A stretch of 64,000 bases of DNA from Promethearchaeati archaeon SRVP18_Atabeyarchaeia-1 (GCA_037308085.1 CP147779.1:64001-128000); one strand, 5' to 3'. Shown: positions 27,600-41,669, counted from the first letter of the stretch. Made by a program: numbers and translations. Notes: generated by a model from the sequence alone, not told the origin.

Positions 27600-27759
27600 A
27601 CTGCCTCACTTTTGAAACAGCTATTCTTAAAACGGACACGCTAGTGACTCTCTCTATAAGGGTGAGAAAGTTAAAACTCTTTGTTAGCGCACCCTACTAA
27701 TAATAATGGTAATAGCTGCGGCAAATGCGCTTGTCCAATACCAGTGGGCGAAAATCACA

Positions 27760-28275
27760 ATGGCTGAGGAAAGACTCTTCGAACGGATCGGAAGCACGGA
27801 GAACTTCAAGAAATATGTTAAGCTTCTTTTGAATCAGTACCAGATTGTTGACGGATACTGGTTCTCATACATCGAGAAGCAGTATGGGCTGGATATCGCC
27901 CTCAAGATGAATGAGGAAATATGGAGCAAGATCGGCACCAAGACAGCCAGAGACATAAAGTCAATGTTCAAACTCGAAGGAAAGGGCGTCGATAAGGTAC
28001 TGCGCGCACTGCAGCTGCTCCCTTGGTACACTATCACCGACTACCAGGTCTTCATGGAGGGCGAATCCGTGCGGATAGAGATACCGCACTGCCTCCCCCA
28101 AGAGATACGAAAGACGAAGGGAATGGGAGAGTACCCCTGCCGGAAGATGCACACAGGAATCCTTGAAAACTTCGTGAAAGAGATTGATGATTCGGTCAAA
28201 GTCAAGTGCGTCTTCGCGCCACCAGATGAGCACCCCAAGGACCTGTACTGCAGATGGATCCTAGAACCAAAATAA
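27760..28275 (+). CDS. DUF6125-like (V4R/HNOX-like) protein
   Basis: VDGYWF...YGLDIALKMNEEIW, HCLPQ..R...YPC, KCVFAPPDEHP...CRW. Confidence 0.7.
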   Translation: MAEERLFERIGSTENFKKYVKLLLNQYQIVDGYWFSYIEKQYGLDIALKMNEEIWSKIGTKTARDIKSMFKLEGKGVDKVLRALQLLPWYTITDYQVFMEGESVRIEIPHCLPQEIRKTKGMGEYPCRKMHTGILENFVKEIDDSVKVKCVFAPPDEHPKDLYCRWILEPK

Positions 28276-28379
28276 GGATGAGCCCAGATAAGGAATCATG
28301 AGAAGTTGCGCCAAGCGCAGATTCTGGCCCTTATACCGGTTATTCGGCGGTCTCATTGGAATATTCTGAATTTGAGCAA

Positions 28380-28456
28380 ATGCTGAGATACAGCGAATTC
28401 GAGAATTTCGTAACAAGATTCCCATGAAAGGCGCCAAACAAGGAGCCCGATTGCAG
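28380..28456 (+). repeat. decayed copy of the 3' end of the HTH-repeat nuclease gene
   Basis: Encodes LRYSEFENFVTRFP-stop versus the nuclease's LKYAEFERFVSTCL-stop; 34/48 nt identical with TGA in the same position. Confidence 0.75.
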
Positions 28457-28463
28457 TTCGATA

Positions 28464-29081
28464 TTACCTCTTTCTCCCGAGAAGGACAGCTGCAAGGAGA
28501 ACCACCGCAGGCGCCACAACTACTGCAGCAACCGCGGTACTCGCCGGGATTGGCGCGTATACGTCCACCTCTAATGGGCCAAAACTCAACCCGTATCCCA
28601 ACCCGCCATAGAATAGACCCACGATGAAATAACGCCCAGGCTGAACTGGGACTCCCCAAGGATTCCATAGAGTCTGGTTGCAGGTCTGCGGCCAAATCAG
28701 AACAGCTGTGACACTTTCCCCAGGGCTAAGGGGAATTCCCCAAAGAACAGAAGGAACAGCCAGAAAAGCGCCATCGACATACACGATATTGTTTGACAAG
28801 TCATACACCGTAAAACCAAACATCAACGCCGAGCCCACGAGAGTTACATTATGATCGCAGATGTTCGTGACGGTGAAGGTAATGTTTACAGGTTCTCCAA
28901 CCCAAAATGTTGTCTTCTGCACCGCAATGGTAAAACTGATCTCGCCTTGCCCATCAACCCTCTCCGCTGCGAGCGGAGTGGTGGCGGAAGGCTGCTTCAC
29001 GCCAAAACCAAAGGCGCACACCATCCCGACCCCAACAACCAAGGCAAGAACCAACAGCGCACGCGCCCTACCGGAAAGCAA
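28464..29081 (-). CDS. secreted, C-terminally anchored Ig-like protein (BsuPI-like domain)
   Basis: TTG start, signal peptide, GEPVNITFTVTN, LSPGES, WPQ, VQPGRY, C-terminal TM plus RKR. The upstream part of the track's ORF is a shadow of the GNAT gene. Confidence 0.7.
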   Translation of the reverse strand: MLSGRARALLVLALVVGVGMVCAFGFGVKQPSATTPLAAERVDGQGEISFTIAVQKTTFWVGEPVNITFTVTNICDHNVTLVGSALMFGFTVYDLSNNIVYVDGAFLAVPSVLWGIPLSPGESVTAVLIWPQTCNQTLWNPWGVPVQPGRYFIVGLFYGGLGYGLSFGPLEVDVYAPIPASTAVAAVVVAPAVVLLAAVLLGRKR

Positions 29082-29232
29082 AGCATCCACTCCACAAATA
29101 CAAGCGCACCCGAAGGAATAAATGTCTGTGCCTCCGAACGCCATAGCCCTACCAAGAATACGCCAACATTTCCAGAAAAGTCGCCCAACTAGACACTTAC
29201 CCTTGAAGAAAGAAATCAAGCTTGGAACTTCG

Positions 29233-29736
29233 CTACAAGTTCTTGATGAATGGAATCGTCTTGAAGTCGTATTCAGTGCGCAGCCGCTCCCCAGTATCCC
29301 TGAACCCCATCCTGATCCAAAAACCATAGGACTTCCAAGGAACACCCTGCGCATTCTCCGTAGTATCAGTCCTCACCAGGGAAAACCCACACTCCCTGGC
29401 AACGCCTTCAACGTGAGCCACAAGAGCCCTACCAACCCCCTTCCCCTGCTCATCCCTCCTCACATCAAGGTTGTCGATATCGACGTAACCACGTTCCCTC
29501 TTGAACACGATGAACCCAACTACCCTCCCATCCCGCTCAGCCACGGCAACCTCAAAACCACCCTTCAACCTATTCCCCCGAGCCCAAGCCTTCGCCAGCA
29601 CATCAGGCGAGGAAAAGGTAGCAAACTCAGTTGCGGTAAACCCCGCAACCTCGGTCCTCGTCTTCGACGATAGGTTAACCTCACATATAGACGGAATGTC
29701 TTCCCGAATCGCAGGCCGAACAATAAGCCTTGGCAT
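29233..29736 (-). CDS. GNAT family N-acetyltransferase
   Basis: VRPAIREDI, VVGFI, LDVRRDEQGKGVGRAL, FWIRMGF. Confidence 0.9.
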   Translation of the reverse strand: MPRLIVRPAIREDIPSICEVNLSSKTRTEVAGFTATEFATFSSPDVLAKAWARGNRLKGGFEVAVAERDGRVVGFIVFKRERGYVDIDNLDVRRDEQGKGVGRALVAHVEGVARECGFSLVRTDTTENAQGVPWKSYGFWIRMGFRDTGERLRTEYDFKTIPFIKNL

Positions 29737-29910
29737 GGCAGAGACAGTTAGCAGATTGTAGTATAATTCTTTCTGCTTCTTGGGATGTTTCGCTGTGGAA
29801 TCTCGGGAACGTCGAGCTACAGGTGGATCCAATACAGAGGGAGCCAAGCTGCTACTGTGGTAACCCTGCTTTCCTTTCGCATTTCAGTGTAGTTCTGGCA
29901 ATGAGCCTCA

Positions 29911-31242
29911 TTATTGGCGGTTCATCCTGACTGTTTCGGCGCCAAGCTTCCTCCCGCCATGCCTCAAGGCCATGCTGACATCAATGAGCACCGCCGCAGC
30001 CACGATCACTACACACAGAATGACAATCATATCCGAGCTTGATAGTACACCAAAAGGCTTCTCAGAGTGTGAACCCTCATTCAAAACAGAAGAATAGATG
30101 TAGCCAGGCATGAGCTGGTACGATGGATCAGGTCCATCAAAGCTTGGATCAGCCGCGAAAACGACGACAAGGTCCAAGTACGGGACGACGTATATGTGTT
30201 GGCCGCCGTACCCACTGGCGAAGTAGCCATCGATCAAAGGATACGTCCACCATTGATAGCCATATCCAACGAAATCCGCAACAATGGGGTTCGTCATATG
30301 TTGACGAAGCGACGTCTTCGTTGACTCTGCCACCCAGCCGGCAGAAACAATCTCCTCACCATTCCAAGTGCCGTTGTTCAGCATCAAATACCCAACCTTG
30401 GCCATGTCACGAGGAGTCATATACAGCCCGCCCGCTGTATCGTAGTAGCCACCTAGCGCAGTATCCCACGCAACATCTCCTACGCCAATAGGGTCAAAGA
30501 GGAACTTGCGGGCGAAGGAAGCAACACTATAATTAGAGGTCTGCTGAATTATCACCCCAAGCAATAAAGAAGCCCCTGAACAGTAGACCCATTTCTCTCC
30601 AGGCTGAAATGCCATAGGCAAATTGAGAAAATACTGAGCCCAATTCCCGCTATCATACATCGCGTGAAATGAGTTCCGATAGTCTGAATAGGGCAGCGTC
30701 CATTCATCCCAAGCCAGGCCAGTGGTCATTGTCAACAGGTGCCAGAGCGTCATGTTCCGCTTGCGCGAATCTAGATTCGCGATCTGCCAACCAGGAAAGA
30801 AATCGACAACCCTCTGGCTGACATTCCTTATGAATCCCTTGTCTATTGCGATCCCTATGAGAATTGAAGTAATACTCTTCCCAGCCGACTGCAAGTGATG
30901 CAGTAAACCATAGTACATCCCGTGCCAGTATTCCTCGCAAACAACATACCCATGGCGAACGACAATAAAGGAGTCGGTCGGATAGCCGCCATCAACGATC
31001 AGTTTGATCGCGTCGTCAAGATAGGCAGAACTCATTCCCTGTTCTTCTGGCGTGGAAGTCCGCCAGCCGTCCGTCGGCCAGTAATCCCGCGAAACCGCAC
31101 CATACCGTGTCGCGCTATTCCCCATAGAACCCACTACTCTGGATGCAGCGCCCGCTGCCGACACTGAAACAGACATAAGGACCAGGGAAGCGATAGCTAA
31201 ACAGTAAACCGTTCTCCTAGCTCTGCCCGGACACCATTTCAT
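29911..31242 (-). CDS. secreted, membrane-anchored serine hydrolase (beta-lactamase class C-like)
   Basis: SAGK (SxxK), HLLTMTTGL, YCS, ASGYGGQ; signal peptide and C-terminal TM. Confidence 0.9.
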   Translation of the reverse strand: MKWCPGRARRTVYCLAIASLVLMSVSVSAAGAASRVVGSMGNSATRYGAVSRDYWPTDGWRTSTPEEQGMSSAYLDDAIKLIVDGGYPTDSFIVVRHGYVVCEEYWHGMYYGLLHHLQSAGKSITSILIGIAIDKGFIRNVSQRVVDFFPGWQIANLDSRKRNMTLWHLLTMTTGLAWDEWTLPYSDYRNSFHAMYDSGNWAQYFLNLPMAFQPGEKWVYCSGASLLLGVIIQQTSNYSVASFARKFLFDPIGVGDVAWDTALGGYYDTAGGLYMTPRDMAKVGYLMLNNGTWNGEEIVSAGWVAESTKTSLRQHMTNPIVADFVGYGYQWWTYPLIDGYFASGYGGQHIYVVPYLDLVVVFAADPSFDGPDPSYQLMPGYIYSSVLNEGSHSEKPFGVLSSSDMIVILCVVIVAAAVLIDVSMALRHGGRKLGAETVRMNRQ

Positions 31243-31482
31243 AATGACCGCCCAGAACCTCACAGCCCGTCTGGAGGCATTGCCCTTTCCGCACAGTCCC
31301 ATGCCTAATCCATCTCTTAACAATTACTATCGAGAAACTGTAATATGGGGGCCTTAATGCCTCGATTACTTGGTTTATTCTCGTTACCCCGGAATTCGAC
31401 AGTAAAGGAAAAAGACGAGGAGCACCACCACAGGGACTGCAACCGCCTTGCGCGCCACAGAGAAGTTCGAGGAAGAGCAAGC

Positions 31483-32019
31483 TCAACTCATCGCGTAGCG
31501 GTCAATCGCTTCTCTTGCCCCAGTCAGCCTCTCTTTCACTTCCTTCCATAAGGCCTCAAGCTGCTTCTGGTAATCCTGCAACACCTGTTCGCCAAGCTTC
31601 CCCTGACCCTCCCCAATCTGCTTCTTCAGGTAAGATATCTGATCAAGAATAGTGTCCGCCTTGATTATATTCAGGCTAGTCTGAGAAAGGAGCTTCGACT
31701 TATCCTCCACAAGCTTACTGACAAGCGCGCTCTGCCTCGCCGCCTGATCTGCAGCAACCTTTGCGATTGCCTGCGCTCCCGCCACATTCTGCTGAAGAAA
31801 ATAGAACCCTATTACCGCTGCCACCCAGCCACTGAAAAAGCCTACCAGATTCGCGATGCCTGTGTACCCCCAAAAGATTGTCGCTAACACAGCCAAACCC
31901 ATTATCAGCATGAAAGAGCCAATGAACACCATCGCCAAAACGTATCTATGCTTCTCCGTTGATTCTTGCAGTTGCACGTCATGGCTAGCTGGTTGTGTCC
32001 TAATCTCTTTTTCATCCAT
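31483..32019 (-). CDS. hypothetical protein with two TM helices and a coiled coil
   Basis: Two hydrophobic helices ending VIGFYF, then a heptad-like tail; GGGGGA upstream. Confidence 0.6.
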   Translation of the reverse strand: MDEKEIRTQPASHDVQLQESTEKHRYVLAMVFIGSFMLIMGLAVLATIFWGYTGIANLVGFFSGWVAAVIGFYFLQQNVAGAQAIAKVAADQAARQSALVSKLVEDKSKLLSQTSLNIIKADTILDQISYLKKQIGEGQGKLGEQVLQDYQKQLEALWKEVKERLTGAREAIDRYAMS

Positions 32020-32193
32020 AATCTTGTGTCCCCCCCATAAATCCTAGTTCCTGTGAGCAGAGTCAATATAGGTCGTCAGTACTTATGCCGCTAGAATCTA
32101 GCTGTTCTCGACCTTATAAGGGTAGCAGCAATCTGGTATTGATCGCCTTATGAATCCTCTGCAGGTTCCAACCACAACTTGTACTGCTTATAG

Positions 32194-32500
32194 CTAGGGC
32201 TTTTCACTATTTGACTGCAACACTGCGATCAAAGCAACGATACCCAACACCAACGCCTACTGGAAACGCCCCCGTTCAAGTCGCACACGATTGAAAAGTA
32301 ACGTTCACAGGCTCTCCGGTCACAAAAGCGTTCTTCTACAGCGCCGTGGTGAGCTTAAACCCGCCTTGCTCATCAACTACCTCCGCGACGAGGGGCGTGC
32401 CAGCCGAAGATGGCCTGAGACTCAAACCCGAAACGCACACCATCCCCACAACAACAATCACAGCGGAAACCAAAACCGCACGCGCCCTACCGGAAATCAA
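32194..32500 (-). pseudogene. decayed paralog of the 28464-29081 secreted Ig-like protein
   Basis: ISGRARAVLV...GMVC..GEPVNVTF matches the intact paralog; in-frame TAG at 32338-32336, internal deletion, and the TM tail ALVLGIVALIAVL in another frame. Confidence 0.8.
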
Positions 32501-32559
32501 ACAATCCCCTCCCTCAGTAAAGGCACGCTTGCTATAGCCACTCAAATTCCCTTGCTGGC

Positions 32560-32799
32560 TTACTCTTCTCCAACTTTGCTTTTCTCCCGCCTCTGTTTCC
32601 TCTTGGCTTCCAGCTCACTTGTCCCGTCTGCGGCTTTGCTCGTAGTTGTTTCCGCTTCCAAGTCGATGCCAGTGCCGTACTCTTTCATAAGGGAACGAGC
32701 CAGCGCCTCACTTAACTTCTTGGTTATTTCATCCATCTCTTTGCCCTTTTTAGCCTGCCCGGGACTACGAGTTTCTTCTTCTTTCTCATTGCCCGACAT
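32560..32799 (-). CDS. small charged hypothetical protein
   Basis: ATG at 32799 after GGAGG; AT-rich TATA-like sequence upstream. Confidence 0.4.
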   Translation of the reverse strand: MSGNEKEEETRSPGQAKKGKEMDEITKKLSEALARSLMKEYGTGIDLEAETTTSKAADGTSELEAKRKQRREKSKVGEE

Positions 32800-33090
32800 T
32801 ACGCGATCCTCCAATATTGACGCAATGTACTGGGAAGCGCCTTTGATATAAATGATTTCATCGCGATGCGCCTTTCTTCTTTCTGACGAAGGAAAGGCAC
32901 ATGACGAAGATGAAGGCGCACACGATGAGTTGAACGATCCGTACTGCAAAGCGCCCAACAAGAGCAAGGCAAGAGGGAGTAGACATGCAAGCCTTTGTTC
33001 CTCAGGCGGACTCGCACCGGGAGCTGCGAGAAAAGTGAAGCAGAAGCTGGTCCATCCGATATCCGAGTCAATCCAGGGTAGCGAGCCAAG

Positions 33091-33108
33091 GAAAAAAAAG
33101 AGGGAAAT
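33091..33108 (-). terminator. oligo-T archaeal terminator after the 33142 gene
   Basis: TTTCCCTCTTTTTTTTC on the minus strand about 40 nt after the stop codon. Confidence 0.45.
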
Positions 33109-33141
33109 TAGAGTTGCCATTTTGAATGCTGCGATCAACTA

Positions 33142-34311
33142 CTATTTCATGTTGTGTCCAATCAGCTCGAAGACAAAGAACTCTGTGTTGGGCACATAAG
33201 GTGCCATGAACTGCAGCACTATCTTATCACCATAGTAGGTCTGAGCCACTTTGGTATCGCTGTAAAGAAGCAGAGATAATACACTGCCGTCCCTGGAGCC
33301 ATTGGTTGAAATAAGATCGGCCGACACAAGACCACACTTGTGACAGAGACCATTCTTGTCGACAGCGTAAAGCAATGCCTGGTTGAGCCATGAGTGGCTA
33401 GCATTGTATCCCGCCGGGTGTTCGTACAACTCTAGTCTATATAGCCTGTGATCGGTCAGAGCTGGCGCAGTATTCAGATTATGGTAGACGGCGACATCGC
33501 TTTCTGGGGCAACCAAGTTGTGGATGTTGAGCAAGCCTTCGTCAGCATAAGCGCTACCGTTCCACACTAGAAGATTGGGACACCCACCGCCCGTAATAGG
33601 GGTGTTCTGGTAACACTTGAACTCGGTGTACTCTGTATATGAGGGAGTATAATACCAAGAGAACCACCCGTAAACCCCCCAGGTCGTCTTGAGAGTTATG
33701 GAGGCTATCAATGAATTATACTTCTGTACTCTAATCAATGTTGTGAAGATTAGGTTGTATTCCTTAGTTTTGTCGTTGAAATTGTAGTTCCATATGGCGG
33801 GAGCTCCCCAATTCAGTAGGAGCATGTTTGGATTAACCTGGATCCCTGGATACGTGACCGTGTTGGTAGCCGAGAATGTAGGGTTCGCACCTATCGTTGC
33901 TGTGATGCCGTACGAGTATGATCCGACGCTTGTCGTTGGCTGATAAGCAACAGCTGTGCAATAGCTGGACATATCAATTCTGACCTGACCTGAGGCTATC
34001 CGTCCTGTCCCTGTTCCTTGGTTCACAGATGGATTCATGTCCACACTAACGTAAACAGCGTAGTAGTCATAGCTGGGATCGCTAGAAGGGAGATAATCAA
34101 CCATCCACTGAAGGGCCATATGACCAACATAGTATGTTTGACTCGCCCACAGGAACCATTCGGTGTCATAGTAATCCCTTGGGAACCCGCCCGACATCGT
34201 GTTGCTTACCCACAGATTATAGTTTGTGTCAGCTCTAACTGTTGTTACTTCGAGTGCTGCCATGCTTGAGAACATTAGAAGAATTATTGCTGTAGCTACC
34301 GCTTTTCTCGT
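33142..34311 (-). CDS. secreted beta-rich protein: leukocidin/hemolysin-like N-domain (tentative) plus a GGGCP-initiated C-domain
   Basis: Signal peptide (M)RKAVATAIILLMFSSMAALEVTTVRA from ACG at 34311; DPSYDYYAV, YQP followed by a Ser/Thr-alternating hairpin; GGGCPNLLVWNG...SWLNQALLYAVD. Confidence 0.6.
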   Translation of the reverse strand, partial: TRKAVATAIILLMFSSMAALEVTTVRADTNYNLWVSNTMSGGFPRDYYDTEWFLWASQTYYVGHMALQWMVDYLPSSDPSYDYYAVYVSVDMNPSVNQGTGTGRIASGQVRIDMSSYCTAVAYQPTTSVGSYSYGITATIGANPTFSATNTVTYPGIQVNPNMLLLNWGAPAIWNYNFNDKTKEYNLIFTTLIRVQKYNSLIASITLKTTWGVYGWFSWYYTPSYTEYTEFKCYQNTPITGGGCPNLLVWNGSAYADEGLLNIHNLVAPESDVAVYHNLNTAPALTDHRLYRLELYEHPAGYNASHSWLNQALLYAVDKNGLCHKCGLVSADLISTNGSRDGSVLSLLLYSDTKVAQTYYGDKIVLQFMAPYVPNTEFFVFELIGHNMK

Positions 34312-34377
34312 TTTTCCTTCCCTCTCCTCTCTTAGTACGCGGATCTGTCCGCGCCCGAACCTCCTCTTTCTATTAGG

Positions 34378-34388
34378 ATATATATAAT
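34378..34388 (-). promoter_or_regulatory. TATA box upstream of the secreted toxin-like gene
   Basis: ATTATATATAT about 70 nt upstream of the proposed start, in the divergent intergenic region. Confidence 0.5.
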
Positions 34389-34498
34389 CCTTGCGGTATA
34401 GCGGTATAACAGTAAAGTATAAGACAAAAGGCTTAAAATAGGGACAGATACGTAGACCACAACAAGGAAGAAAGCACCAGACAGGAGCCACCCGCACC

Positions 34499-34684
34499 TT
34501 GAGTAGAGTACATGAGACTATAGCGCACACTGGCAAGCAGAAGACATCGTTCACCGTCGATCAGGATCTCTGGAAGAAGTGGATCCTCTTTGTCGTGGAC
34601 AAACGTGGTTCTGCGCGCAAGCTGAGTCAGGAGCTTGAAGTAGCTATGAACGAGTACATGAGGAACCATAGGAGAGACAAGTAG
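34499..34684 (+). CDS. ribbon-helix-helix (CopG-like) DNA-binding protein
   Basis: KTSFTVDQDLWKKW...KLSQELEVAMNEYM. Confidence 0.7.
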   Translation: MSRVHETIAHTGKQKTSFTVDQDLWKKWILFVVDKRGSARKLSQELEVAMNEYMRNHRRDK

Positions 34685-34736
34685 GGACTCGAGCTATTCT
34701 GAGTCTGCCTTTCCTTCAATATCAGTGAGGGCTGGC

Positions 34737-34807
34737 AGCCTTTTCACGCCCCGATAAGAAAGAGGGCAGAAATTGTCTACTCCTTCTCAAAGAGCTACTC
34801 AGCAGCC
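34737..34807 (+). repeat. decayed copy of the sequence upstream of the HTH-repeat nuclease gene
   Basis: Shares colinear blocks AGCCTT, CCCGA.AAG, GCAGAAA, TCCTT, CAAAGA.CT, GCAGCC with 37460-37518. Confidence 0.65.
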
Positions 34808-34975
34808 GGCGACCGGGCAGTCACTAAGTTTTCTGACTGCAAACTTCATTTAACAATCTTGAATCTAATGTGTGTCCTGCCGGCGGGAAGTTGGAGATCA
34901 TTCTACCTTGTTCGGATTAGGAAATCCATTGAGTCCTGGTGAACTACCGATAATAGGCTTCGAGAGTCCTTGATT

Positions 34976-35476
34976 ATGGAAAAATATGACAAACAAGATC
35001 AGAGATTGATGGCAACTTGGGCTGCAGACTGTGCCGAAAGAGTACTTCCATTTTTTGAGAAGGCATATCCGAAGGATGATCGGCCCCGCAGAGCTATCGA
35101 GGCATGCAGAACGTGGGTTCGGACAGGCATGTTTAAGATGGCTGATATACGCGGAGCCTCTCTTGCAGCTCATGCCGCCGCCCGCGAAGCGAAAGAGAAT
35201 AGCGCAGCTTGTTTTGCTGCGCATGCCGCAGGTCAAGCGGTGGCAACTGCGCATGTTCCCGAACACGCCTTCGGCGCTGCTTATTATGCTCTTAAAGCCG
35301 TTGCGGCAGCTGACCCTGATAATGCCGAGGTTAAGATTGCCAAAGAACGACATTGGCAATCACGGCGTCCTCCAAAAAGCCTAAGGCAAGAAGTCCTAAA
35401 CAAGATAATAATCCAAAAACATGGCGACAGAATTCTCATCAAGATACGAAAAGGCAAGGATACTGAGGTACGATGA
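34976..35476 (+). CDS. Imm5-like putative immunity protein
   Basis: WAADCAERVLPFFE..P.DDRPRRAIEA...AAHAAARE...AAGQAVATAHVPEHAFGAAYYALKA. Confidence 0.85.
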   Translation: MEKYDKQDQRLMATWAADCAERVLPFFEKAYPKDDRPRRAIEACRTWVRTGMFKMADIRGASLAAHAAAREAKENSAACFAAHAAGQAVATAHVPEHAFGAAYYALKAVAAADPDNAEVKIAKERHWQSRRPPKSLRQEVLNKIIIQKHGDRILIKIRKGKDTEVR

Positions 35477-35565
35477 GCTCGAGAAATTCGTAACCATATC
35501 TTTAGAGAAGTTGCCTGACAAGGAAGACTTTCTCCCCACAGGAAAAAGCCGATACCAGGCTGCTG
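35451..35565 (+). repeat. decayed copy of the nuclease 3' end and its downstream sequence
   Basis: KARILRYDELEKFVTISL versus KVKILKYAEFERFVSTCL (43/68 nt); CACAG(G)AAAA.GCC.AT.C..GG is shared beyond the stop. Confidence 0.75.
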
Positions 35566-35851
35566 CCAGCGCACGCCTTGCCGAGGGGAAAAACCAAGCT
35601 CAGGAAAACTACTTGTGGTTCGGCGGTCTTCCCTAAGGAAGGAGAGACAAGGATTCTTGGAACCCAGATCCCCTGCCGAGTGTGTGATGCAGTTTCGCCA
35701 TACCTTGCAGACCGTGTCTCGGAAACCCCTTGATTTCAGCTTGGGGTAACCTACTAGTCTCCATATGATTGGAGCCATTGTGTCCTTGAAGAAGCTAAAA
35801 CCTGCAACCACATCCAAGCACGCGCCGAATCTGAATACTTCAGGTGACCCG

Positions 35852-36348
35852 TCAGCTATCCGGGAGACGACCGCGTCTCACCTTCCTTGTCAGTTTAGGC
35901 AGTGACTGCAATTCACTGCCGATTACGTGTACTCCGCAAGCCGGGCACGTCCCTTTGACATGCACCCACTCCAGGAAGTCATCCCGATGAGCAGCACCCC
36001 CGCAACTCGGGCAAGACGCAATCGAGTCGCCCCTATACAACTTCTTCCTGCATACAATGCACACACCAACCCCTCCCGCCCTTCATCTAGGGGCGTAGTG
36101 ACATCCTCGACTGCTTCCCCATCCTCAAATACCTTCGCCTCCCCCATCCTCACCTGCTCATTGATGAACCCAAGCAGGAACCCCACCCCAGAAAACAAAC
36201 CCAAACCACCAACGAGGAAAGCGAACACCTCCCCCCCGAATTTGCCCCTCACAACGGTAGGTGGGTAGCACACGACGACGAACAACCCGAACAGAACCAG
36301 CATGACTCCTGCAAAAAGAGGGAACAATCGAAGCGACCCATCACTCAC
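35852..36348 (-). pseudogene. frameshifted protein with two TM helices and a RING-like domain
   Basis: The TM ORF (start 36348) and RING-like ORF (CIVC..CPSC..H..EW..CPAC) join if one GT is removed from TTGGTGTGTGC at about 36060-36069. Confidence 0.6.
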
Positions 36349-36597
36349 CTCACCCAAGAAACCCGCCTCTTCACACGAGAGATCAGCGTACCCATACAAA
36401 AACGTTTTCCAGCCTGCGCATCTCTCTCCCTCTCGGATATAAATGAGAAAAACCCTCCGTACGAAGGCGCCCCGAGGATCCAAACCACAGCGCATCCTAA
36501 TCCGACCAATCGCGTCAGCGATCCCTAGACTGAGATGAGTGTGTCCCGCATCCCGCTATTTGCTCAGTCTCAGCTCGAGGTAGAATACTGATTCTCA

Positions 36598-36617
36598 GAC
36601 CCATGGTGACCCATGGT
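36598..36617. repeat. perfect 10-bp tandem duplication GACCCATGGT x2
   Basis: Directly visible in the intergenic sequence. Confidence 0.9.
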
Positions 36618-36701
36618 ATAACCGTTTCTGTCTCACGGACAAAGTTGAGTGGTTAGGGTGAATTCGCCTCAGACAGTGCTACCCATGAGAACGGAGAGCA
36701 C

Positions 36702-37360
36702 TCAGCGTCTTCGCCTAGTTGCGTCCCTCGCAGCGACGGCGAACACAGCCGCCACCGCACCCACTGCCAACGCGACAATAATGGCATTCAGCACAGAGTC
36801 TCCATGTGAAGAGGATTGAGACCCAAATATGTTGCTGGAGGTCAAGGTAAGGTAAGGTTTTCCCAATAACCCCACTTCACCCAAGTCTCCGACTTGACTC
36901 TCAGCCCAGTATCCACATCATACCACGTTCGGCTGAGATAGTCATAATAACGCACCTCGATATACGCCACACTTCTCTCTAAGCCCGTAACCAGCATTGT
37001 CATCGTACCATTTATCCGGAGATCTGAGCCCGGCCACAGTGGATCGCCCCTGCCCAGGTTAGGCATGACCAAGAACATCCAATCTGAGCCGCTCGAAAGA
37101 TTCGCCGTCCATTGGTATTCATGGACCTGATCCCCGACAAACTCCGTGAAGTTAAAGTGAACTATGGACCCTACCACACCAGTTATCTCGACACGCTGTC
37201 TACAAGTAATATTGTTCAGAGTCCAAGCACAAGTGTATTCCGCCCATTGCCCTGCCTGCACACCGACCTCGCCATAAGTCACGGCACTTGAAACCACCGA
37301 TACCGCCGTACACCCAATCAGAATCGAAACCACCAGAAACAGGCAAACGCCCCGCCTCAC
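36702..37360 (-). pseudogene. secreted protein whose C-terminal membrane anchor is out of frame
   Basis: Signal peptide and GVQAGQWAEY domain; removing one unit of AAGGT x3 (36844-36858) restores ENLTLTSSNIFG...TM-RRR. Confidence 0.75.
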
Positions 37361-37459
37361 TACCGTTTCTCCTCACTCTCCCCGCAAAGCCTGACCAAAT
37401 ACAACACGCATATCCTTCGTGTTCCTGAGTATAAATGTCATCGGTCTACAGCACAAGAA

Positions 37460-37518
37460 AGCCTTCCTGCCCGAAAAGGGGAAGCAGAAAACGATCCTTT
37501 CCAAAGACCTGTGCAGCC
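37460..37518 (+). repeat. upstream (left) element of the HTH-repeat nuclease locus
   Basis: Homologous to 34737-34807. Confidence 0.65.
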
Positions 37519-37548
37519 TTTTAATACTCCCACCCATGACACACTACC

Positions 37549-39315
37549 ATGTCCCAAACTCCACACACCAACACGCCACACAGCCACCCACAACCGCCAA
37601 CAAACATGCAACTGCAGATGCAGGAAGATCCAGACGAAACCATAAGGAATACTAGGAGTAAGAAAAGAGGAAGGAACAAGAAAGCAAGGGGCAAACCAAG
37701 AAAAGAGCTACCAATAGCAGGAAGTGAGCTATTCGCGAAATGGAAGGCTGGGAGATCAGCAGGAGACCTCTCAAAGGAATATGGCGTAAGCCCCGGAACA
37801 ATCCGGAACCGGTTAAAGGAATGCGACAAGGAATCCTATGCTAGCATAGCTAGGAGCAGGAAACCTCCCAGAAGCAATGGGCGAAGAAGAGAACTGCCAA
37901 TACCTAACTCAGAACTCTACGAACAATGGAAGAATGGGGAATCAGCCGAAACCTTGGCAAGAAAGTACAGGGCCAGCCGCCAAACCATTTCGAGGAGACT
38001 AAGAGAGTACAATGAACAGGAATACGGCGAAATAGCCAAGAGAAAGATAGCCACTTCAATCGCTGAGCGGAGGAAGAATATTCCAGTAGCACCAGCTAAA
38101 CTCATGGATAGATGGAAGAGTGGTGAATCAGCAGGCAAACTCGCGCACCAATTCAATGTTAGCCGCTCAACCATCACCAAAATACTGGAGAAGTACGGTG
38201 ACAATGACTACCGGCGAATGGCTAAGGAGAGAATGACCAGAGGAAAAGCGAAAGAAATACCGATATCTGAAGCCTCCGACCGGTGGAAGAAAGGCGAAAG
38301 GATCAAGGACCTCGCAAAGAGGTACGGGGTTAGCTTCGGAGCAGCTCGGAGGAAACTAATGGAGAACGACGAAAATGCGTACAGGGAGATAGCAAGGATC
38401 AACAGGGCAAGAAGAGGGAAGGAGAAACTTTCAGTATCAGACGTCAAACTGTTCCAGTTGTGGAAGAACGGCAAATCGACAAGAGCCCTAGCAAAGAAGT
38501 TAGGAGTAAGCCGTCAGACGATTTCGAGAAGACTAAAGGAGTATAATGCACAGGAATACAGTGAAGTGGCCAAGAAAAAAATCGCCGCGAAAATCTCTGA
38601 AATTGCGAAAGAGAAAAAGATCTCGATACCTACTGATGAGTTGTCGAAGCTGTGGGAGAACGGGAAGTCAACAGCGACTCTGGCAAGAGAGAACAAAGTA
38701 AGTCGACAAACCATATCAAGGATACTAATCAAGCGGAACAGAGCGGAGTATCAAACAATAGCCAAGCACAGAATAATCACTGCAAGGACGAAAGAACTAC
38801 TGATACCAATGCCTGAACTTTTCGACCGATGGGAAAACGGAGAATCACCAGAAAAACTCGAAAAAGAATGCGGAATAAGCTACAGACAAATCCTGAACAA
38901 ACTGAGAGCATATGACAAAGACAGGTACAAGAAGAACGCCGAAAGAAGAGGACTAGGTTCCATCAGAGCAAAGAATTGTGGAGTCGACAGCCTATTCGAA
39001 CTGAACGTCGGAAGAATTCTGGAAAGACACGGCATCTTATCCAAGAGAACTACGCTGAAGTTCGGCAAACATAATTACCGCCCAGATTTCCTACTACTTG
39101 AACGCAACACAATAATCGAAGCAATGGGGCTTTCCTTCGACTGGTATTGGAGGCGCAACAAACAAAAGACAAGAGACTATCTCCACCACAAGTACAAAGT
39201 AGTCGCTGTAGTGCCCACCGGGCAAGTATACTGGAAAGCAAAGGGATATCTCAGCAGGAAAGTAAAGATACTCAAGTACGCGGAATTCGAGAGATTCGTG
39301 TCGACATGCCTATGA
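37549..39315 (+). CDS. seven tandem HTH repeats fused to a C-terminal Vsr/DUF559-like PD-(D/E)XK nuclease domain
   Basis: About 60-aa repeat consensus IP..EL...W..G.S...LA....VSR.TI...L...Y..IA x7; C-terminal SLFE...YRPDFLL...IIEAMG. Confidence 0.8.
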   Translation: MSQTPHTNTPHSHPQPPTNMQLQMQEDPDETIRNTRSKKRGRNKKARGKPRKELPIAGSELFAKWKAGRSAGDLSKEYGVSPGTIRNRLKECDKESYASIARSRKPPRSNGRRRELPIPNSELYEQWKNGESAETLARKYRASRQTISRRLREYNEQEYGEIAKRKIATSIAERRKNIPVAPAKLMDRWKSGESAGKLAHQFNVSRSTITKILEKYGDNDYRRMAKERMTRGKAKEIPISEASDRWKKGERIKDLAKRYGVSFGAARRKLMENDENAYREIARINRARRGKEKLSVSDVKLFQLWKNGKSTRALAKKLGVSRQTISRRLKEYNAQEYSEVAKKKIAAKISEIAKEKKISIPTDELSKLWENGKSTATLARENKVSRQTISRILIKRNRAEYQTIAKHRIITARTKELLIPMPELFDRWENGESPEKLEKECGISYRQILNKLRAYDKDRYKKNAERRGLGSIRAKNCGVDSLFELNVGRILERHGILSKRTTLKFGKHNYRPDFLLLERNTIIEAMGLSFDWYWRRNKQKTRDYLHHKYKVVAVVPTGQVYWKAKGYLSRKVKILKYAEFERFVSTCL

Positions 39316-39464
39316 AAGTTCCAACAGAAACACGCCTTTGCTCACAGAAAATGCCTATGCAGGGAGCAGTTTGCCCTAGAAACCTGTCTCGTCTTCAACT
39401 TCTGAATAGACACCTCCACAAGGAAGAGTGGAGGAGGATCGTCCTTCCGCCAACGACTTCCAAC

Positions 39465-41669
39465 TTACTCCTTCTCATAGTATTCCTCAGCAGTAGGTGG
39501 CCGCGGGTCCAGTCCCCTACGCTTCCTGATCTGGCCAACTATGTCAACCTGCATGCTCTCAGGCACGGGCTGCCAGTGGCTGAATTGTGAGGCCCAAAAA
39601 GCTCTGCCCTCCGTCGCTGATCGCAGTTCCTCTGCCAGCCCGAAACTCTCCGCTACAGGCAGGTTGGCTTTGACGATCATCATCTCTTCTTCGGTTGGGA
39701 TATCTATAACGCGACCGCGCCGCCTCTGAACGATAGAGATGACGTTACTAACAAAATCTGACGGCACCTTACACTCAAACGTCATAATCGGCTCCAGGAG
39801 CTTGGGATCAGACAGGAGGAAACAACACCAAATCGGTCTCCAAGTCATTGGCAATATTTGTGCAGGTCCCCTGTGCACAGGGTCTTCGTGCAACTCTAGG
39901 TCTGTGATGTTTACTTTGAGTCCGTAGGCGTGTTCTTTGGTTAGGACGCTGTCGTCTACGGCGTCTCTGAAGCCTGCTTTGACTTGTTCTATGACTTCGT
40001 CTACGTATTGTCTTCCTTTGACTTTGTTGACTAGGATGTTGGTGTCTTCTACTGCTACTACGTTGCGGCTGTCTTCGGTTGGCCAGTGGTACTGGTTTTT
40101 GAGTATTTGGTGGCGTTCGTCTTTAGATTGCATGTCGGTTAGTTTTTCTTCTTTTATTGCTTGTATGATTTCTTCTGGTAGTTTTTCGAGTGTTACCCAG
40201 CATCTGTTGTGCTTGTTTGGTGATTTGCCGAGTATGGGTCTTCCTTCGTAGTTTTTGGTTATGGTTTCTCTGTAGATGACTATGGGTTTGCTGGTTTTGA
40301 CTTTTAGTCCTGCTTCTTGCATGCGGTAGGCTGTGACTTCGAGGTGTAGTTCGCCCATTCCGCTGAGGAGGTATTCTCCTGATTCCTTGTTTATGATGAA
40401 TCGGAGGTTGGGGTCTTCGAGTGTTAGTTTATGGATTACTTTCTCGAATTTTGGTAGGTCTTTGACGTCCACGGGTTCGACTGCTACTGTGACGACTGGG
40501 TCTGAGACGTATCGTAGGCCTTCGAAGGGTTGGGTTTCTTGGCCTTGTTCCGCGATTGTTTCGCCTACTCGGATGCCTTGGATGCCGGCGATGGCGGCTA
40601 TGTTTCCTGCTGGGATTTTGTCGACTATGACTCTGTCTGCTGCCATGGACATGTAGACTTGCTGTATTGTTCCGTCTCCGTGGTAGGTGACGAGCCTGAT
40701 TGGTTTTCCTTTTTCGACGGTGCCGCTGAAGACTCTTCCGATGGCTATGACGCCGCGTTGTGGGTCTACTTCGATTGTGGATACGCACATGAGGAGTGGG
40801 CCGTTGGGGTCGACGGCTGAGACTGATTTGCCGAGTTCGCTGTTTGGGTCGCCTGGCCAGATTACGGGGGCTCTGTAGGATTGGGCTTCGACTGGGTTTG
40901 GTAGGTGTTGGATGAACATGTCTAGGACGGTTTCGTATAGGGGTGCGTGCTTGGATAGTTCTTCGAGGTTTCCGCCTTCTTGGTGGGCGGCGAGTATTTC
41001 ATTGAAGGTTACTCCTCTTGCCTGCATGTGGGGGTAGTTTGTTCCCCACTTGTGGAGTGCTGCGCCGAAGGCGACTCTTCCGTCTTCGACTGATACTTGC
41101 CAGTCTTTCTTGTGCTCTGCGGGTGCGTATTTCTCGATGAGTCCGTTTGCTTTCTTTATGATTTTGGCGAACTTTTCCTGGATGGATGTGGAGGTTAGCC
41201 TGAGTTCCTTTATTAGTCGGTCGACTTTGTTTATGAAGAGGAGTGGCTTTACTCGTTCTCTTAGTGCCTGCATTAGGACGGTTTCGGTTTGGGTCATGGG
41301 GCCTTCTACTGCGTCGACTACGACGAGGGCTCCGTCGACTGCTCTGAGGGAGCGTGTGACTGCTCCTGAGAAGTCGATGTGTCCTGGTGTGTCTATGAGG
41401 TTGACTAGGTATTCGACGCCCTTGTAGGTGTGGGCGAGGGATACGTTGCTTGCGAATACGGTCATTTGCCGCTTCTGTTCGAGTTCCCATGAGTCCAGGA
41501 AGAGCTTTTTGCCGGCTGTCTCCTCGCTGATTATTCCGGCTGCGGCGAGTAGGCTGTCGGATAGGGTGGTCTTGCCGTGGTCTACGTGGGCTATGATGCT
41601 TGTGTTTCTGATCCTCTGTCTCTCATTCATCAGTTTCACTATTTCGTCCACTTGCTTGTATCTTCCCAA
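39465..41669 (-). CDS. translation elongation factor EF-2 family protein, probably the divergent paralog aEF-2p
   Basis: AHVDHGKT, DTPGH, NKVD, GMGELHLE, KSPNKHN, HEDPVHRGPAQ; G2 is RQMT rather than RGIT; no rpS12, rpS7 or EF-1a neighbours. Confidence 0.9.
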   Translation of the reverse strand: MGRYKQVDEIVKLMNERQRIRNTSIIAHVDHGKTTLSDSLLAAAGIISEETAGKKLFLDSWELEQKRQMTVFASNVSLAHTYKGVEYLVNLIDTPGHIDFSGAVTRSLRAVDGALVVVDAVEGPMTQTETVLMQALRERVKPLLFINKVDRLIKELRLTSTSIQEKFAKIIKKANGLIEKYAPAEHKKDWQVSVEDGRVAFGAALHKWGTNYPHMQARGVTFNEILAAHQEGGNLEELSKHAPLYETVLDMFIQHLPNPVEAQSYRAPVIWPGDPNSELGKSVSAVDPNGPLLMCVSTIEVDPQRGVIAIGRVFSGTVEKGKPIRLVTYHGDGTIQQVYMSMAADRVIVDKIPAGNIAAIAGIQGIRVGETIAEQGQETQPFEGLRYVSDPVVTVAVEPVDVKDLPKFEKVIHKLTLEDPNLRFIINKESGEYLLSGMGELHLEVTAYRMQEAGLKVKTSKPIVIYRETITKNYEGRPILGKSPNKHNRCWVTLEKLPEEIIQAIKEEKLTDMQSKDERHQILKNQYHWPTEDSRNVVAVEDTNILVNKVKGRQYVDEVIEQVKAGFRDAVDDSVLTKEHAYGLKVNITDLELHEDPVHRGPAQILPMTWRPIWCCFLLSDPKLLEPIMTFECKVPSDFVSNVISIVQRRRGRVIDIPTEEEMMIVKANLPVAESFGLAEELRSATEGRAFWASQFSHWQPVPESMQVDIVGQIRKRRGLDPRPPTAEEYYEKE

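What the first reader, a model, noticed from the sequence alone, without database searches (positions are those of the whole stretch)
27760..39369. Candidate new mobile/gene-capture system: ends of the HTH-repeat nuclease locus reused around unrelated cargo genes
Seen: the last codons, stop and 3' flank of the nuclease gene (39259-39369) recur in the same orientation at 35451-35565, fused onto the 3' end of the Imm5-like gene (43/68 nt). They recur again at 28380-28456, after the DUF6125 gene (34/48 nt, TGA in register). The nuclease's upstream sequence (37460-37518) recurs at 34737-34807, so the Imm5-like gene occupies exactly the nuclease's slot between left and right elements. Each right element is followed by convergent minus-strand genes; after the two relics these are mostly secreted or membrane proteins. 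No integrase or transposase is present. Inference: either an autonomous nuclease element with non-autonomous cargo-carrying derivatives, or a tandemly amplified unit whose nuclease slot is repeatedly overwritten, generating a surface-protein/defence plasticity zone.
Basis: partly seen in the sequence, partly recalled or inferred. Interest (0 to 1): 0.85.

Follow-up and report, generated by a model that had tools for sequence, protein, structure and literature searches.

The report
Selfish nuclease relics behind EF-2
The repeated "ends" are leftovers of a selfish DNA-cutting gene that has repeatedly inserted at the tail of the essential EF-2 gene of an Asgard archaeon, each time bringing a spare copy of that tail. 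This way of invading a gene was previously described in fungal mitochondria.

Summary
The right-hand repeat is real. The last ~20 codons plus ~40-50 nt after the stop of the HTH-repeat nuclease gene recur at 35434-35565 and 28351-28466 (pairwise z 8.8-12.3). A fourth, mid-domain relic lies at 32195-32270.

What lies at 34750-34848 is a decayed copy of the 3' end of the neighbouring EF-2 gene. A second copy lies at 36399-36517. The sister genomes carry the same kind of relic (G002 one, G001 four).

Reading away from EF-2, EF-2-tail copies (E) and nuclease copies (N) run E N E N E N N.

Elsewhere in the genome two paralogues of the nuclease are single-gene insertions at the 3' ends of conserved genes, and relatives have empty sites there. 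At one of them a 70-nt copy of the target gene's tail sits on the far side of the nuclease.

Best reading (about 0.6): a new family of free-standing homing-endonuclease-like genes (HTH array plus T7-endonuclease-I-like PD-(D/E)XK domain) that enter the 3' end of a conserved gene carrying a substitute tail. Repeated entry at EF-2 built an 11-kb island of relics and accessory genes.

A dedicated gene-capture system is not shown, but three relics truncated at nearly the same point remain unexplained. The scan noted the nuclease itself before, on this same DNA only.

The parts
27706..28275 (+). DUF6125 gene. Resident gene at the left edge of the island, not cargo.
   Evidence: Pfam PF19620 E 1.4e-24. 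Orthologues in G001 and G002 keep the same radical-SAM neighbour. In G001 an EF-2 3' relic lies 26 nt after its stop.
28351..28466 (+). Nuclease 3' relic N3: last ~17 codons (MLRYSEFENFVTRFP*) plus former coding flank.
   Evidence: z 8.8 and 10.7; nhmmer; frame read.
28464..32019 (-). Accessory genes on the minus strand: 296-aa secreted protein, GNAT acetyltransferase, beta-lactamase-family protein, 178-aa membrane protein.
   Evidence: ORFs, Pfam. GNAT and the 178-aa gene have orthologues on G001 contig C170.
32195..32270 (+). Nuclease relic Nb: mid-domain piece (RPDF...YWKR). Orthologous to a longer 5'-truncated copy in G001.
   Evidence: G001 C170 copy is 74% identical to 39077-39403 (z 63) and continuous with window 32082-32270 (z 33).
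32295..32525 (-). Duplicate of the 5' end and upstream region of the 296-aa gene (copy of 28876-29106).
   Evidence: 71% over 218-230 nt; E 2.5e-23 in translated comparison.
33142..34554 (-). 470-aa secreted protein gene, directly downstream of EF-2 relic A.
   Evidence: ORF; no Pfam family. G001 has a different gene at the corresponding place.
34750..34848 (-). EF-2 3' relic A: last ~25 codons with indels and an internal stop, stop codon in register, plus flank.
   Evidence: Score 23 vs shuffle maximum 19; reads RSPAAE*LFEKE* vs RPPTAEEYYEKE*; z 14.7 vs G002 relic; nhmmer 8e-16.
34970..35476 (+). Imm5-like gene. Only 34976-35390 is Imm5-like; its last 28 codons come from other DNA, including the nuclease relic.
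   Evidence: PF21805 E 1.6e-43 on residues 5-133. G002 orthologue lies elsewhere (587459-587873), 84% identical over 34976-35390 only.
35434..35565 (+). Nuclease 3' relic N2 (reads RILRYDELEKFVTISLEKLP...).
   Evidence: z 12.3; nhmmer; 45% aa identity to the C-terminal extension of the relative P0006, E 1.7e-6.
35923..36495 (-). 190-aa membrane protein ORF (144 aa as called in public assemblies), directly downstream of EF-2 relic B.
36399..36517 (-). EF-2 3' relic B: about codons -5 to -28 plus flank.
   Evidence: z 17.1 vs G002's relic, z 14.1 vs G002's real EF-2 end; nhmmer 4e-15.
36842..37360 (-). 172-aa secreted protein gene, divergent from the nuclease gene.
37549..39315 (+). Intact nuclease gene, 588 aa: seven HTH repeats plus a C-terminal PD-(D/E)XK domain (residues ~458-588).
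   Evidence: Pfam HTH families; domain profile vs PDB: T7 endonuclease I 7.7e-8, Bax1 2e-5, I-Bth0305I 4.5e-4; AF2 pLDDT 89.8; Foldseek.
39249..39369 (+). The 'right element' in its intact copy: nuclease tail, stop, and former coding sequence.
39414..39542 (-). Functional EF-2 3' end plus ~50 nt of pyrimidine-rich downstream flank. This is the segment copied in relics A and B.
39465..41669 (-). EF-2 gene. Codon-composition change point after codon 591 (window 39897).

Best explanation
The 588-aa protein belongs to a rare, previously undescribed family of free-standing homing-endonuclease-like genes. The family joins a variable array of HTH repeats to a T7-endonuclease-I-like PD-(D/E)XK domain.

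The element is essentially the nuclease gene plus a short substitute copy of the 3' end of its target gene. It sits convergent to a conserved host gene. It enters that gene tens of nucleotides (about 60-125 at EF-2, 70 at the TldD/PmbA-like gene) before the stop codon and supplies a replacement tail, so the host gene stays whole. The displaced native tail is left on the far side of the nuclease gene as a relic.

Inferred cycle:
1. The HTH array recognises the 3'-terminal region of the target gene in genomes without the element, and the nuclease domain cuts it.
2. Recombinational repair from an element-bearing copy installs the tail plus the nuclease.
3. The new tail is not cut.
4. Once fixed, the nuclease gene decays.
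5. A variant can invade again, pushing the older tail and the older nuclease further away.

At EF-2 this happened several times. The result is the 11-kb island between DUF6125 and EF-2, with EF-2-tail copies and nuclease copies alternating and unrelated accessory genes lodged among them. The Imm5-like gene landed in one dead copy and fused to its tail.

Shown: the architecture, the relics, the empty sites and the fold. Inferred: cleavage, target choice, immunity of the new tail, and the order of events.
For: 1. Nuclease relics are real and all co-oriented: N3, Nb, N2 and the intact gene.

2. EF-2 3' relics A and B are real and occur nowhere else in the genome. G002 has one relic, 41 aa at 61% identity. 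G001 has four: two on C170, one on C248, one on C206. The relics include about 50 nt of EF-2's downstream flank.

3. Order away from EF-2. Window: E N E N E N N. G002: E N E N. G001 C170: E N E.

4. Independent locus parA. Nuclease paralogue at genome 1242049-1243062, lying between two TldD/PmbA-like genes that are 126 nt apart in G002 (empty site). A 70-nt copy of the upstream gene's tail (reads SLPLGNGSTSVRVKNVVVGGG*) sits directly before the downstream gene's start, z 6.8. The 1.5-kb insert holds only the nuclease gene.

5. Locus parB. A 1.9-kb insert holding only the nuclease gene. Flanking genes are 81 nt apart in G001 (same genus) and 85 nt apart in G002. Homology to the relatives ends within about 10 nt of the target's stop.

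6. G001 C218 has a nuclease where this genome has an unrelated 313-aa ORF.

7. The family is multi-copy with broken copies: 5 places here, 3 in G001, 4 in G002. Strong matches occur only in this family among 301 genomes of the phylum. Only 30 clusters at E <= 1e-10 among 1.84 billion representatives, with variable repeat number and many fragments.

8. Seven of eight full-length copies examined are convergent to their downstream neighbour: here EF-2, a TldD/PmbA-like gene and an acetyl-CoA-synthetase-like gene; in relatives and metagenome contigs an acyl-CoA-dehydrogenase-like gene, RuBisCO, a DUF7347 gene and an unnamed 147-aa gene.

9. The fold and catalytic residues are those of a nuclease.

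10. The same architecture is documented for endonuclease mORF elements of fungal mitochondria: inserted C-terminal, endonuclease ORF, native C-terminal relic (PMC3630166, PMC6279837).
Against: - No relic of the neighbour's tail was found at five other nuclease loci, and the parB relic is only marginal (z 2-3). Tail duplication is therefore firm for two target genes only.
- No EF-2 allele without an element was found, so homing at EF-2 itself is not observed.
- At parA the native relic is not clearly closer to G002's tail than the working tail is (38/66 vs 34/66).
- The lengths of the EF-2 relics differ (about 60 to 125 nt).
- Accessory genes lie between EF-2 relics and nuclease relics, where the intact unit has only a 150-nt spacer. 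The model does not explain how they got there.
- Three nuclease relics (N2, N3 and G002's) start within about 15 nt of each other (nuclease coordinates 39249-39265). Random decay does not predict this.
- Contigs of four metagenome runs show the same arrangement and no alternative joints.
Confidence: 0.6

Rival explanations
1. Gene-capture platform. The nuclease tail together with the EF-2 tail forms a portable junction. Non-autonomous derivatives carrying unrelated genes (Imm5-like, the 712-aa gene) are installed next to EF-2 in trans by the intact nuclease.
For: Three relics are cut at nearly the same point and each abuts an unrelated co-oriented gene. In this genome and in G002, different genes occupy the place between an EF-2 relic and a nuclease tail. 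The Imm5-like gene lies elsewhere in G002, so it moved. A 117-nt piece of it occurs at 91% identity and several-fold higher depth in metagenomes, i.e. in other organisms.
Against: The left element is not significant. DUF6125 is a resident gene with conserved synteny. The relic tails are about as far from each other as from intact genes of other organisms, so no family of derivatives is visible. No second copy of any tail-plus-cargo unit exists in the genome. No moved cargo unit was seen in relatives.
Confidence: 0.12
2. The island was built by ordinary integrative elements (tyrosine-recombinase elements or casposons) that use the EF-2 3' end as attachment site. The EF-2 relics are old att repeats and the nuclease genes are passengers.
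For: The 3'-distal region of EF-2 is the commonest casposon target in Thaumarchaeota, with tandem integrations (PMC4046053, PMC6563490). Direct repeats of a gene tail are what integrases with an att site inside a gene leave behind.
Against: No integrase, Cas1, polymerase or transposase domain in the island. The same kind of tail copy occurs at parA, where the insert holds nothing but the nuclease gene. Nuclease copies alternate with EF-2 relics in three genomes. Casposon target duplications are far shorter than 60-125 nt (author's recollection; the figure was not in the passages read).
Confidence: 0.13
3. Local segmental duplication and decay. A nuclease-EF-2 junction was duplicated in place a few times and the copies rotted, without any mobility.
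For: All copies lie within 11 kb and share orientation. Another local duplicate exists (28876-29106 / 32295-32525).
Against: Copies are 31-55% diverged with conservative, codon-respecting changes, such as GAATTC / GAGCTC / GAACTT for E-F / E-L. This means they diverged as working genes. Paralogues elsewhere are clear insertions with empty sites. A close homologue sits in an unrelated context in another organism.
Confidence: 0.1

Closest known systems
Mobile endonuclease ORFs (mORFs) of fungal mitochondria that carry a foreign C-terminal part of the host gene (Allomyces atp6; Glomus atp6, atp9, cox2, nad3; Endoconidiophora cob and atp6). PMC3630166, PMC6279837.
   Same: Order host-gene core, inserted C-terminal, endonuclease ORF, displaced native C-terminal relic. 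Degenerate endonuclease ORFs lie between the gene and its duplicated tail. Targets are conserved, essential genes.
   Different: Here the host is an archaeal chromosome. The enzyme is an HTH array plus a PD-(D/E)XK domain rather than LAGLIDADG or GIY-YIG. The nuclease gene is convergent to its host gene, not in phase or on the same strand. Several rounds have left an alternating array with accessory genes.
Free-standing homing endonucleases of phages (for example the Seg and Mob proteins of T4; F-CphI, PMC6083498).
   Same: Stand-alone nuclease genes lodged beside conserved genes, patchy among close relatives, often decayed.
   Different: Those are not reported to leave a copy of the target's 3' end (author's knowledge). 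They belong to other nuclease families.
I-Bth0305I (EDxHD family), T7 endonuclease I and Bax1: PD-(D/E)XK or Vsr-like nucleases (PMC3239194).
   Same: Profile and fold similarity of the catalytic domain. I-Bth0305I is a proven homing endonuclease with this kind of core.
   Different: Only four columns are invariant across the 32-sequence domain alignment (E27, D56, E67, K83) and none is a histidine, so the EDxHD motif is not conserved as such. No intron. DNA binding is by up to seven tandem HTH units.
Casposons and other integrated elements at the EF-2 3' end in Thaumarchaeota (PMC4046053, PMC6563490).
   Same: Same target gene and region, the target is kept intact, tandem arrays occur.
   Different: No Cas1, polymerase or integrase here. 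The repeats are 60-125 nt of coding tail plus flank, which is longer than the short target duplications recalled for casposons (author's recollection).
Orphan C-terminal modules of polymorphic toxin loci (Rhs, CdiA).
   Same: Displaced 3' ends pile up next to a main gene, and an Imm5-like immunity-type gene is present.
   Different: The displaced ends belong to EF-2 and to a nuclease with no toxin delivery domain. The relics lie upstream of the intact nuclease, not downstream.

Membership tests
PD-(D/E)XK nuclease superfamily | Alpha/beta core fold of restriction-endonuclease type. | tested here: met
   AF2 model pLDDT 89.8. Nearly all of the top Foldseek PDB hits are PD-(D/E)XK nucleases, though all have E > 0.008.
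PD-(D/E)XK nuclease superfamily | Conserved acidic catalytic residues (E ... PD ... E) and a lysine. | tested here: inconclusive
   E27, D56, E67 and K83 are invariant in 32 sequences. However, the canonical E-x-K lysine position is Met in this protein (IIEAMG). K83 may substitute for it.
T7 endonuclease I-like nucleases | Sequence-profile match over the catalytic core. | tested here: met
   2pfj E 7.7e-8, 1m0d 2.4e-7, over profile positions 5-54. Pfam Phage_endo_I only 0.015-0.025, below cutoff.
EDxHD homing endonucleases (I-Bth0305I) | E-D-x-H-D catalytic motif. | tested here: not met
   The only invariant columns across the 32-sequence domain alignment are E27, D56, E67 and K83; none is a histidine. 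The profile match to 3r3p is weak (4.5e-4).
Homing endonuclease genes (functional class) | Presence or absence at the same site in close relatives. | tested here: met
   parA: empty site in G002. parB: empty in G001 and G002.
Homing endonuclease genes (functional class) | Cuts the element-free allele near the insertion point. | not testable with these tools
   Needs biochemistry.
mORF-type elements with C-terminal duplication | Copy of the host gene's 3' end on the far side of the endonuclease ORF. | tested here: met
   EF-2 relics A and B. TldD/PmbA-like relic, z 6.8, stop in register. parB marginal. Absent at five other loci.
mORF-type elements with C-terminal duplication | The native relic is closer to relatives than the inserted tail is. 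| tested here: inconclusive
   parA: 38/66 vs 34/66 identities to G002. The EF-2 C-terminal part has the same nearest relatives as the rest of the gene.
Integrase- or casposase-driven integrated elements | A recombinase gene (tyrosine or serine integrase, Cas1). | tested here: not met
   No such Pfam hit in ORFs of 130 aa or more at 27.7-39.4 kb. The parA and parB inserts hold only the nuclease.
Integron-like gene capture | Integrase plus repeated recombination sites flanking each cassette. | tested here: not met
   No integrase. The 'left element' is not significant. The right element has no conserved fold.
   RNAalifold -0.57 kcal/mol, 0 compensatory pairs. No Rfam hit at 26-42 kb.

The most novel reading that the evidence does not exclude
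The nuclease tail plus the EF-2 tail is a reusable docking junction. Unrelated genes that become joined to the last ~20 codons of a nuclease gene are carried into the site beside EF-2 by the intact nuclease acting in trans. That would make it a nuclease-driven, integrase-free gene-capture platform in Asgard archaea. The near-identical truncation point of three relics would be its signature.
Probability: 0.12. Interest if true: 0.85.

Novelty: new variant of a known kind. Interest (0 to 1): 0.6.

Why it matters
Mobile elements of Asgard archaea are poorly known. If this reading holds, it adds three things.

1. A new homing-endonuclease-like family whose DNA-binding part is a string of up to seven HTH units. 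Repeat number varies between close homologues (seven here, four in P0006), which would make it a candidate modular DNA-recognition scaffold.

2. The first case I know of in a prokaryotic chromosome of the 'bring your own gene tail' strategy, so far described for fungal mitochondria.

3. An explanation for a hypervariable island next to an essential translation gene, and for why assemblies of relatives break there.

It also gives directly testable substrates: empty sites in sister genomes for two paralogues.

Tried and rejected
- Left element as a repeat: rejected, z 1.3.
- Conserved RNA in the right element: rejected. No covariation and no Rfam family.
- The search for related loci in genome contigs. 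The domain alignment had no conserved stretch. The whole protein gave 37 pattern matches but no relative.
- Read-level rearrangements. Only Logan contigs were on hand. Four wetland runs show the same co-linear arrangement (0-2 differences in run X2), with no joints between 26.5 and 39.8 kb and no empty site. Contig ends near 39828-40029 coincide with the drop in conservation inside EF-2 and are not independent evidence.
- Copies of the neighbour's tail at five further nuclease loci (G002 474-aa copy, L066, L065, L064, G001 C218): none found.
- Similarity of the nuclease upstream region to genome 1243567-1243618 (E 0.03): treated as chance. The orientation does not fit.
- Foreign origin of the last 143 EF-2 codons: no support at the protein level. 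Nearest relatives are the same for both parts.
- Tandem recent amplification: rejected, because the copies are only 45-69% identical.
- Complex prediction, the atlas searches and a second structure prediction were not used, because no claim needed them.

Full report
SETTING. The window is bases 64001-128000 of a closed 2.81-Mb genome. The organism is an Asgard-type archaeon. The finding lies between a DUF6125 gene (27706-28275, +) and an EF-2 gene (39465-41669, -). Two genomes of the same family were used throughout. G001 is the same genus and is fragmented. G002 is another genus and is closed.

THE OBSERVATION. The right element is real.
- The tail of the nuclease gene aligns to 35420-35660 with score 27 (null 9.6 +/- 1.4, z 12.3).
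- It aligns to 28300-28540 with z 8.8. The two relics align to each other with z 10.7.
- In a genome-wide word-7 BLASTN, two of the three pairs (each involving the DUF6125 relic) were top or second-best non-self hits; the nuclease/Imm5 pair did not reach the top 12 under that scoring. A profile finds no other copy in the genome.
- In the nuclease's frame the three copies read ILKYAEFERFVSTCL*, RILRYDELEKFVTISLEKLP... and MLRYSEFENFVTRFP*.
- The differences respect codons (E-F / E-L encoded as GAATTC, GAGCTC and, in G001, GAACTT). The copies therefore diverged as working genes before they were truncated.
- The similarity after the stop codon is former coding sequence. A relative's nuclease (P0006) reads on through ...FVTTSLRKVP.
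- The Imm5-like ORF runs into the relic in the nuclease's own frame, then leaves that frame through a 7-nt indel and stops.

The left element is not real: z 1.3.

1. 34750-34848 is a decayed copy of the last ~25 codons of EF-2 with the stop codon in register.
2. A second EF-2 tail copy lies at 36399-36517 (z 17 against G002's relic).
3. A fourth nuclease relic, a mid-domain piece, lies at 32195-32270. G001 carries the longer orthologous copy, 74% identical to 39077-39403.
4. G002 has an EF-2 tail relic 2.6 kb beyond its EF-2. Between relic and EF-2 lie a 712-aa ORF of no known family and a nuclease-tail relic, which sits exactly where the intact nuclease tail sits here.
5. G001 has four EF-2 tail relics. 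One lies 26 nt after the DUF6125 stop. This suggests that DUF6125 was EF-2's original convergent neighbour and that everything between them is inserted.
6. The relics include about 50 nt of EF-2's pyrimidine-rich downstream flank.

Reading away from EF-2, the order of EF-2 tails (E) and nuclease copies (N) is:
- window: E N E N E N N
- G002: E N E N
- G001 contig C170: E N E

THE NUCLEASE.
- Pfam sees only HTH families.
- A profile of the C-terminal domain finds strong relatives only in this family, out of 301 genomes of the phylum: five places here, three in G001, four in G002, several of them broken.
- Only 30 clusters reach E <= 1e-10 in 1.84 billion representatives. All have the domain at the C-terminus, behind a variable number of HTH repeats.
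- Against PDB sequences, the profile hits T7 endonuclease I (7.7e-8), Bax1 (2e-5) and the homing endonuclease I-Bth0305I (4.5e-4).
- A confident model (pLDDT 89.8) matches PD-(D/E)XK nucleases almost exclusively among the top hits, all weakly.
- E27, D56, E67 and K83 of the domain are invariant.

MOBILITY, SHOWN AT OTHER LOCI.
- parA (genome 1242049-1243062, one internal stop) lies between two TldD/PmbA-like genes that are 126 nt apart in G002. A 70-nt copy of the upstream gene's tail, stop in register, sits directly before the start of the downstream gene. The working gene has its own tail beside the nuclease.
- parB (992639-993682) is a 1.9-kb insert. The same two flanking genes are 81 nt apart in G001 and 85 nt apart in G002. 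A short native-tail relic there is only marginal (z 2-3).
- In G001 a nuclease occupies a slot that here holds an unrelated ORF.
- A 70%-identical homologue sits in a wholly different context in another organism.
- Seven of eight full-length copies examined are convergent to their downstream neighbour.

INTERPRETATION. The architecture is host-gene core, new tail, endonuclease gene, displaced native tail. This is what is described for endonuclease mORF elements in fungal mitochondria (PMC3630166, PMC6279837). The EF-2 3' end is also a known landing site for archaeal elements (PMC4046053, PMC6563490).

I therefore read the island as the product of repeated entry of nuclease elements at the EF-2 tail. 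Each round displaced the previous tail and the previous nuclease, which then decayed. I give this reading a confidence of about 0.6.

The Imm5-like gene is a later arrival in a dead nuclease copy. Its G002 orthologue lies 460 kb away, and homology covers only 34976-35390.

Cleavage, target choice and immunity of the new tail are inferred, not shown.

WHAT DOES NOT FIT.
- Tail copies were not found at five other nuclease loci.
- No element-free EF-2 allele was found.
- Accessory genes lie inside the units, and the model does not explain how they got there.
- Three nuclease relics start within about 15 nt of each other. Either the ~200 nt beyond the EF-2 stop are protected because they serve EF-2, or the tail is reused in some way.

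RIVALS. Decayed integrase or casposon islands, plain local duplication, and a cargo platform are weighed in their own sections.

A RELATED ODDITY.
- EF-2 codons 1-591 have A or C at 90% of third positions (T in 4 of 591). Codons 592-734 have 40%. The genome mean is 0.51 +/- 0.06.
- The change point is the same in G002 (codon 592). G001's contig ends 19 codons later.
- The bias occurs in all three family genomes and in none of 17 other Asgard EF-2 loci.
- The unbiased part is the part next to the nuclease. This would fit a tract that is repeatedly overwritten together with the element, but I could not show that.

VERDICT. This is a new variant of a known kind of selfish element. Interest 0.6.

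Noticed in passing
window 39465-41669 (EF-2), change point at 39897: Codons 1-591 have third positions A 253, C 278, G 56, T 4 (AC3 0.90). Codons 592-734 have AC3 0.40. This ORF ranks second of 2789 in the genome (mean 0.51 +/- 0.06). G002 has the same change point, the same bias is seen in G001, and it is absent from 17 other Asgard EF-2 loci. The cause is unknown. The boundary sits just before the diphthamide loop HEDPVHRG.
   Followed up: partly
genome 2712777-2713700 (-), outside the window: The only ORF with a stronger A/C third-position bias than EF-2 (AC3 0.88, 308 aa, unknown function). The next ORF (2713825-2714292, flavodoxin-like) has 0.72.
   Followed up: no
window 35165-35308 (inside the Imm5-like gene): In four wetland metagenome runs a ~117-nt piece occurs at about 91% identity and several-fold higher depth, with unrelated flanks. 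Other, more abundant organisms therefore carry a near-identical Imm5-like segment.
   Followed up: no
L064:2019-3199 (metagenome contig beside nuclease homologue P0014): The RuBisCO large-subunit gene convergent to this nuclease changes reading frame about 61 codons before its stop. Gene calls in two further assemblies show the same split. It could be a junction of the same kind as at EF-2, or a sequencing frameshift.
   Followed up: partly
window 28876-29106 and 32295-32525: A 230-nt duplicate (71%) of the 5' end and upstream region of the 296-aa secreted-protein gene. The second copy abuts nuclease relic Nb, as if a nuclease plus 296-aa-gene pair had been duplicated and then partly deleted.
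   Followed up: partly
window about 45470-46657 (-) = L062:10312-11499; genome 447001-447579 and 451678-452022: Other homing-endonuclease-like ORFs. One is a 395-aa protein with faint LAGLIDADG_3 plus HTH hits near HypF. Two more ORFs elsewhere carry LAGLIDADG-type motifs (LGYYDGDG, GFFDAEGG).
   Followed up: no
window 37549-39315 vs P0006 (L065:2338-3576): Close homologues differ in the number of HTH repeats (seven here vs four). Other family members range from one or two repeats to about six.
   Followed up: no
G001 contigs C266, C170, C248, C206: The real 3' end of EF-2 is missing from the G001 assembly, while four relic copies are present. The repeats probably broke the assembly.
   Followed up: partly
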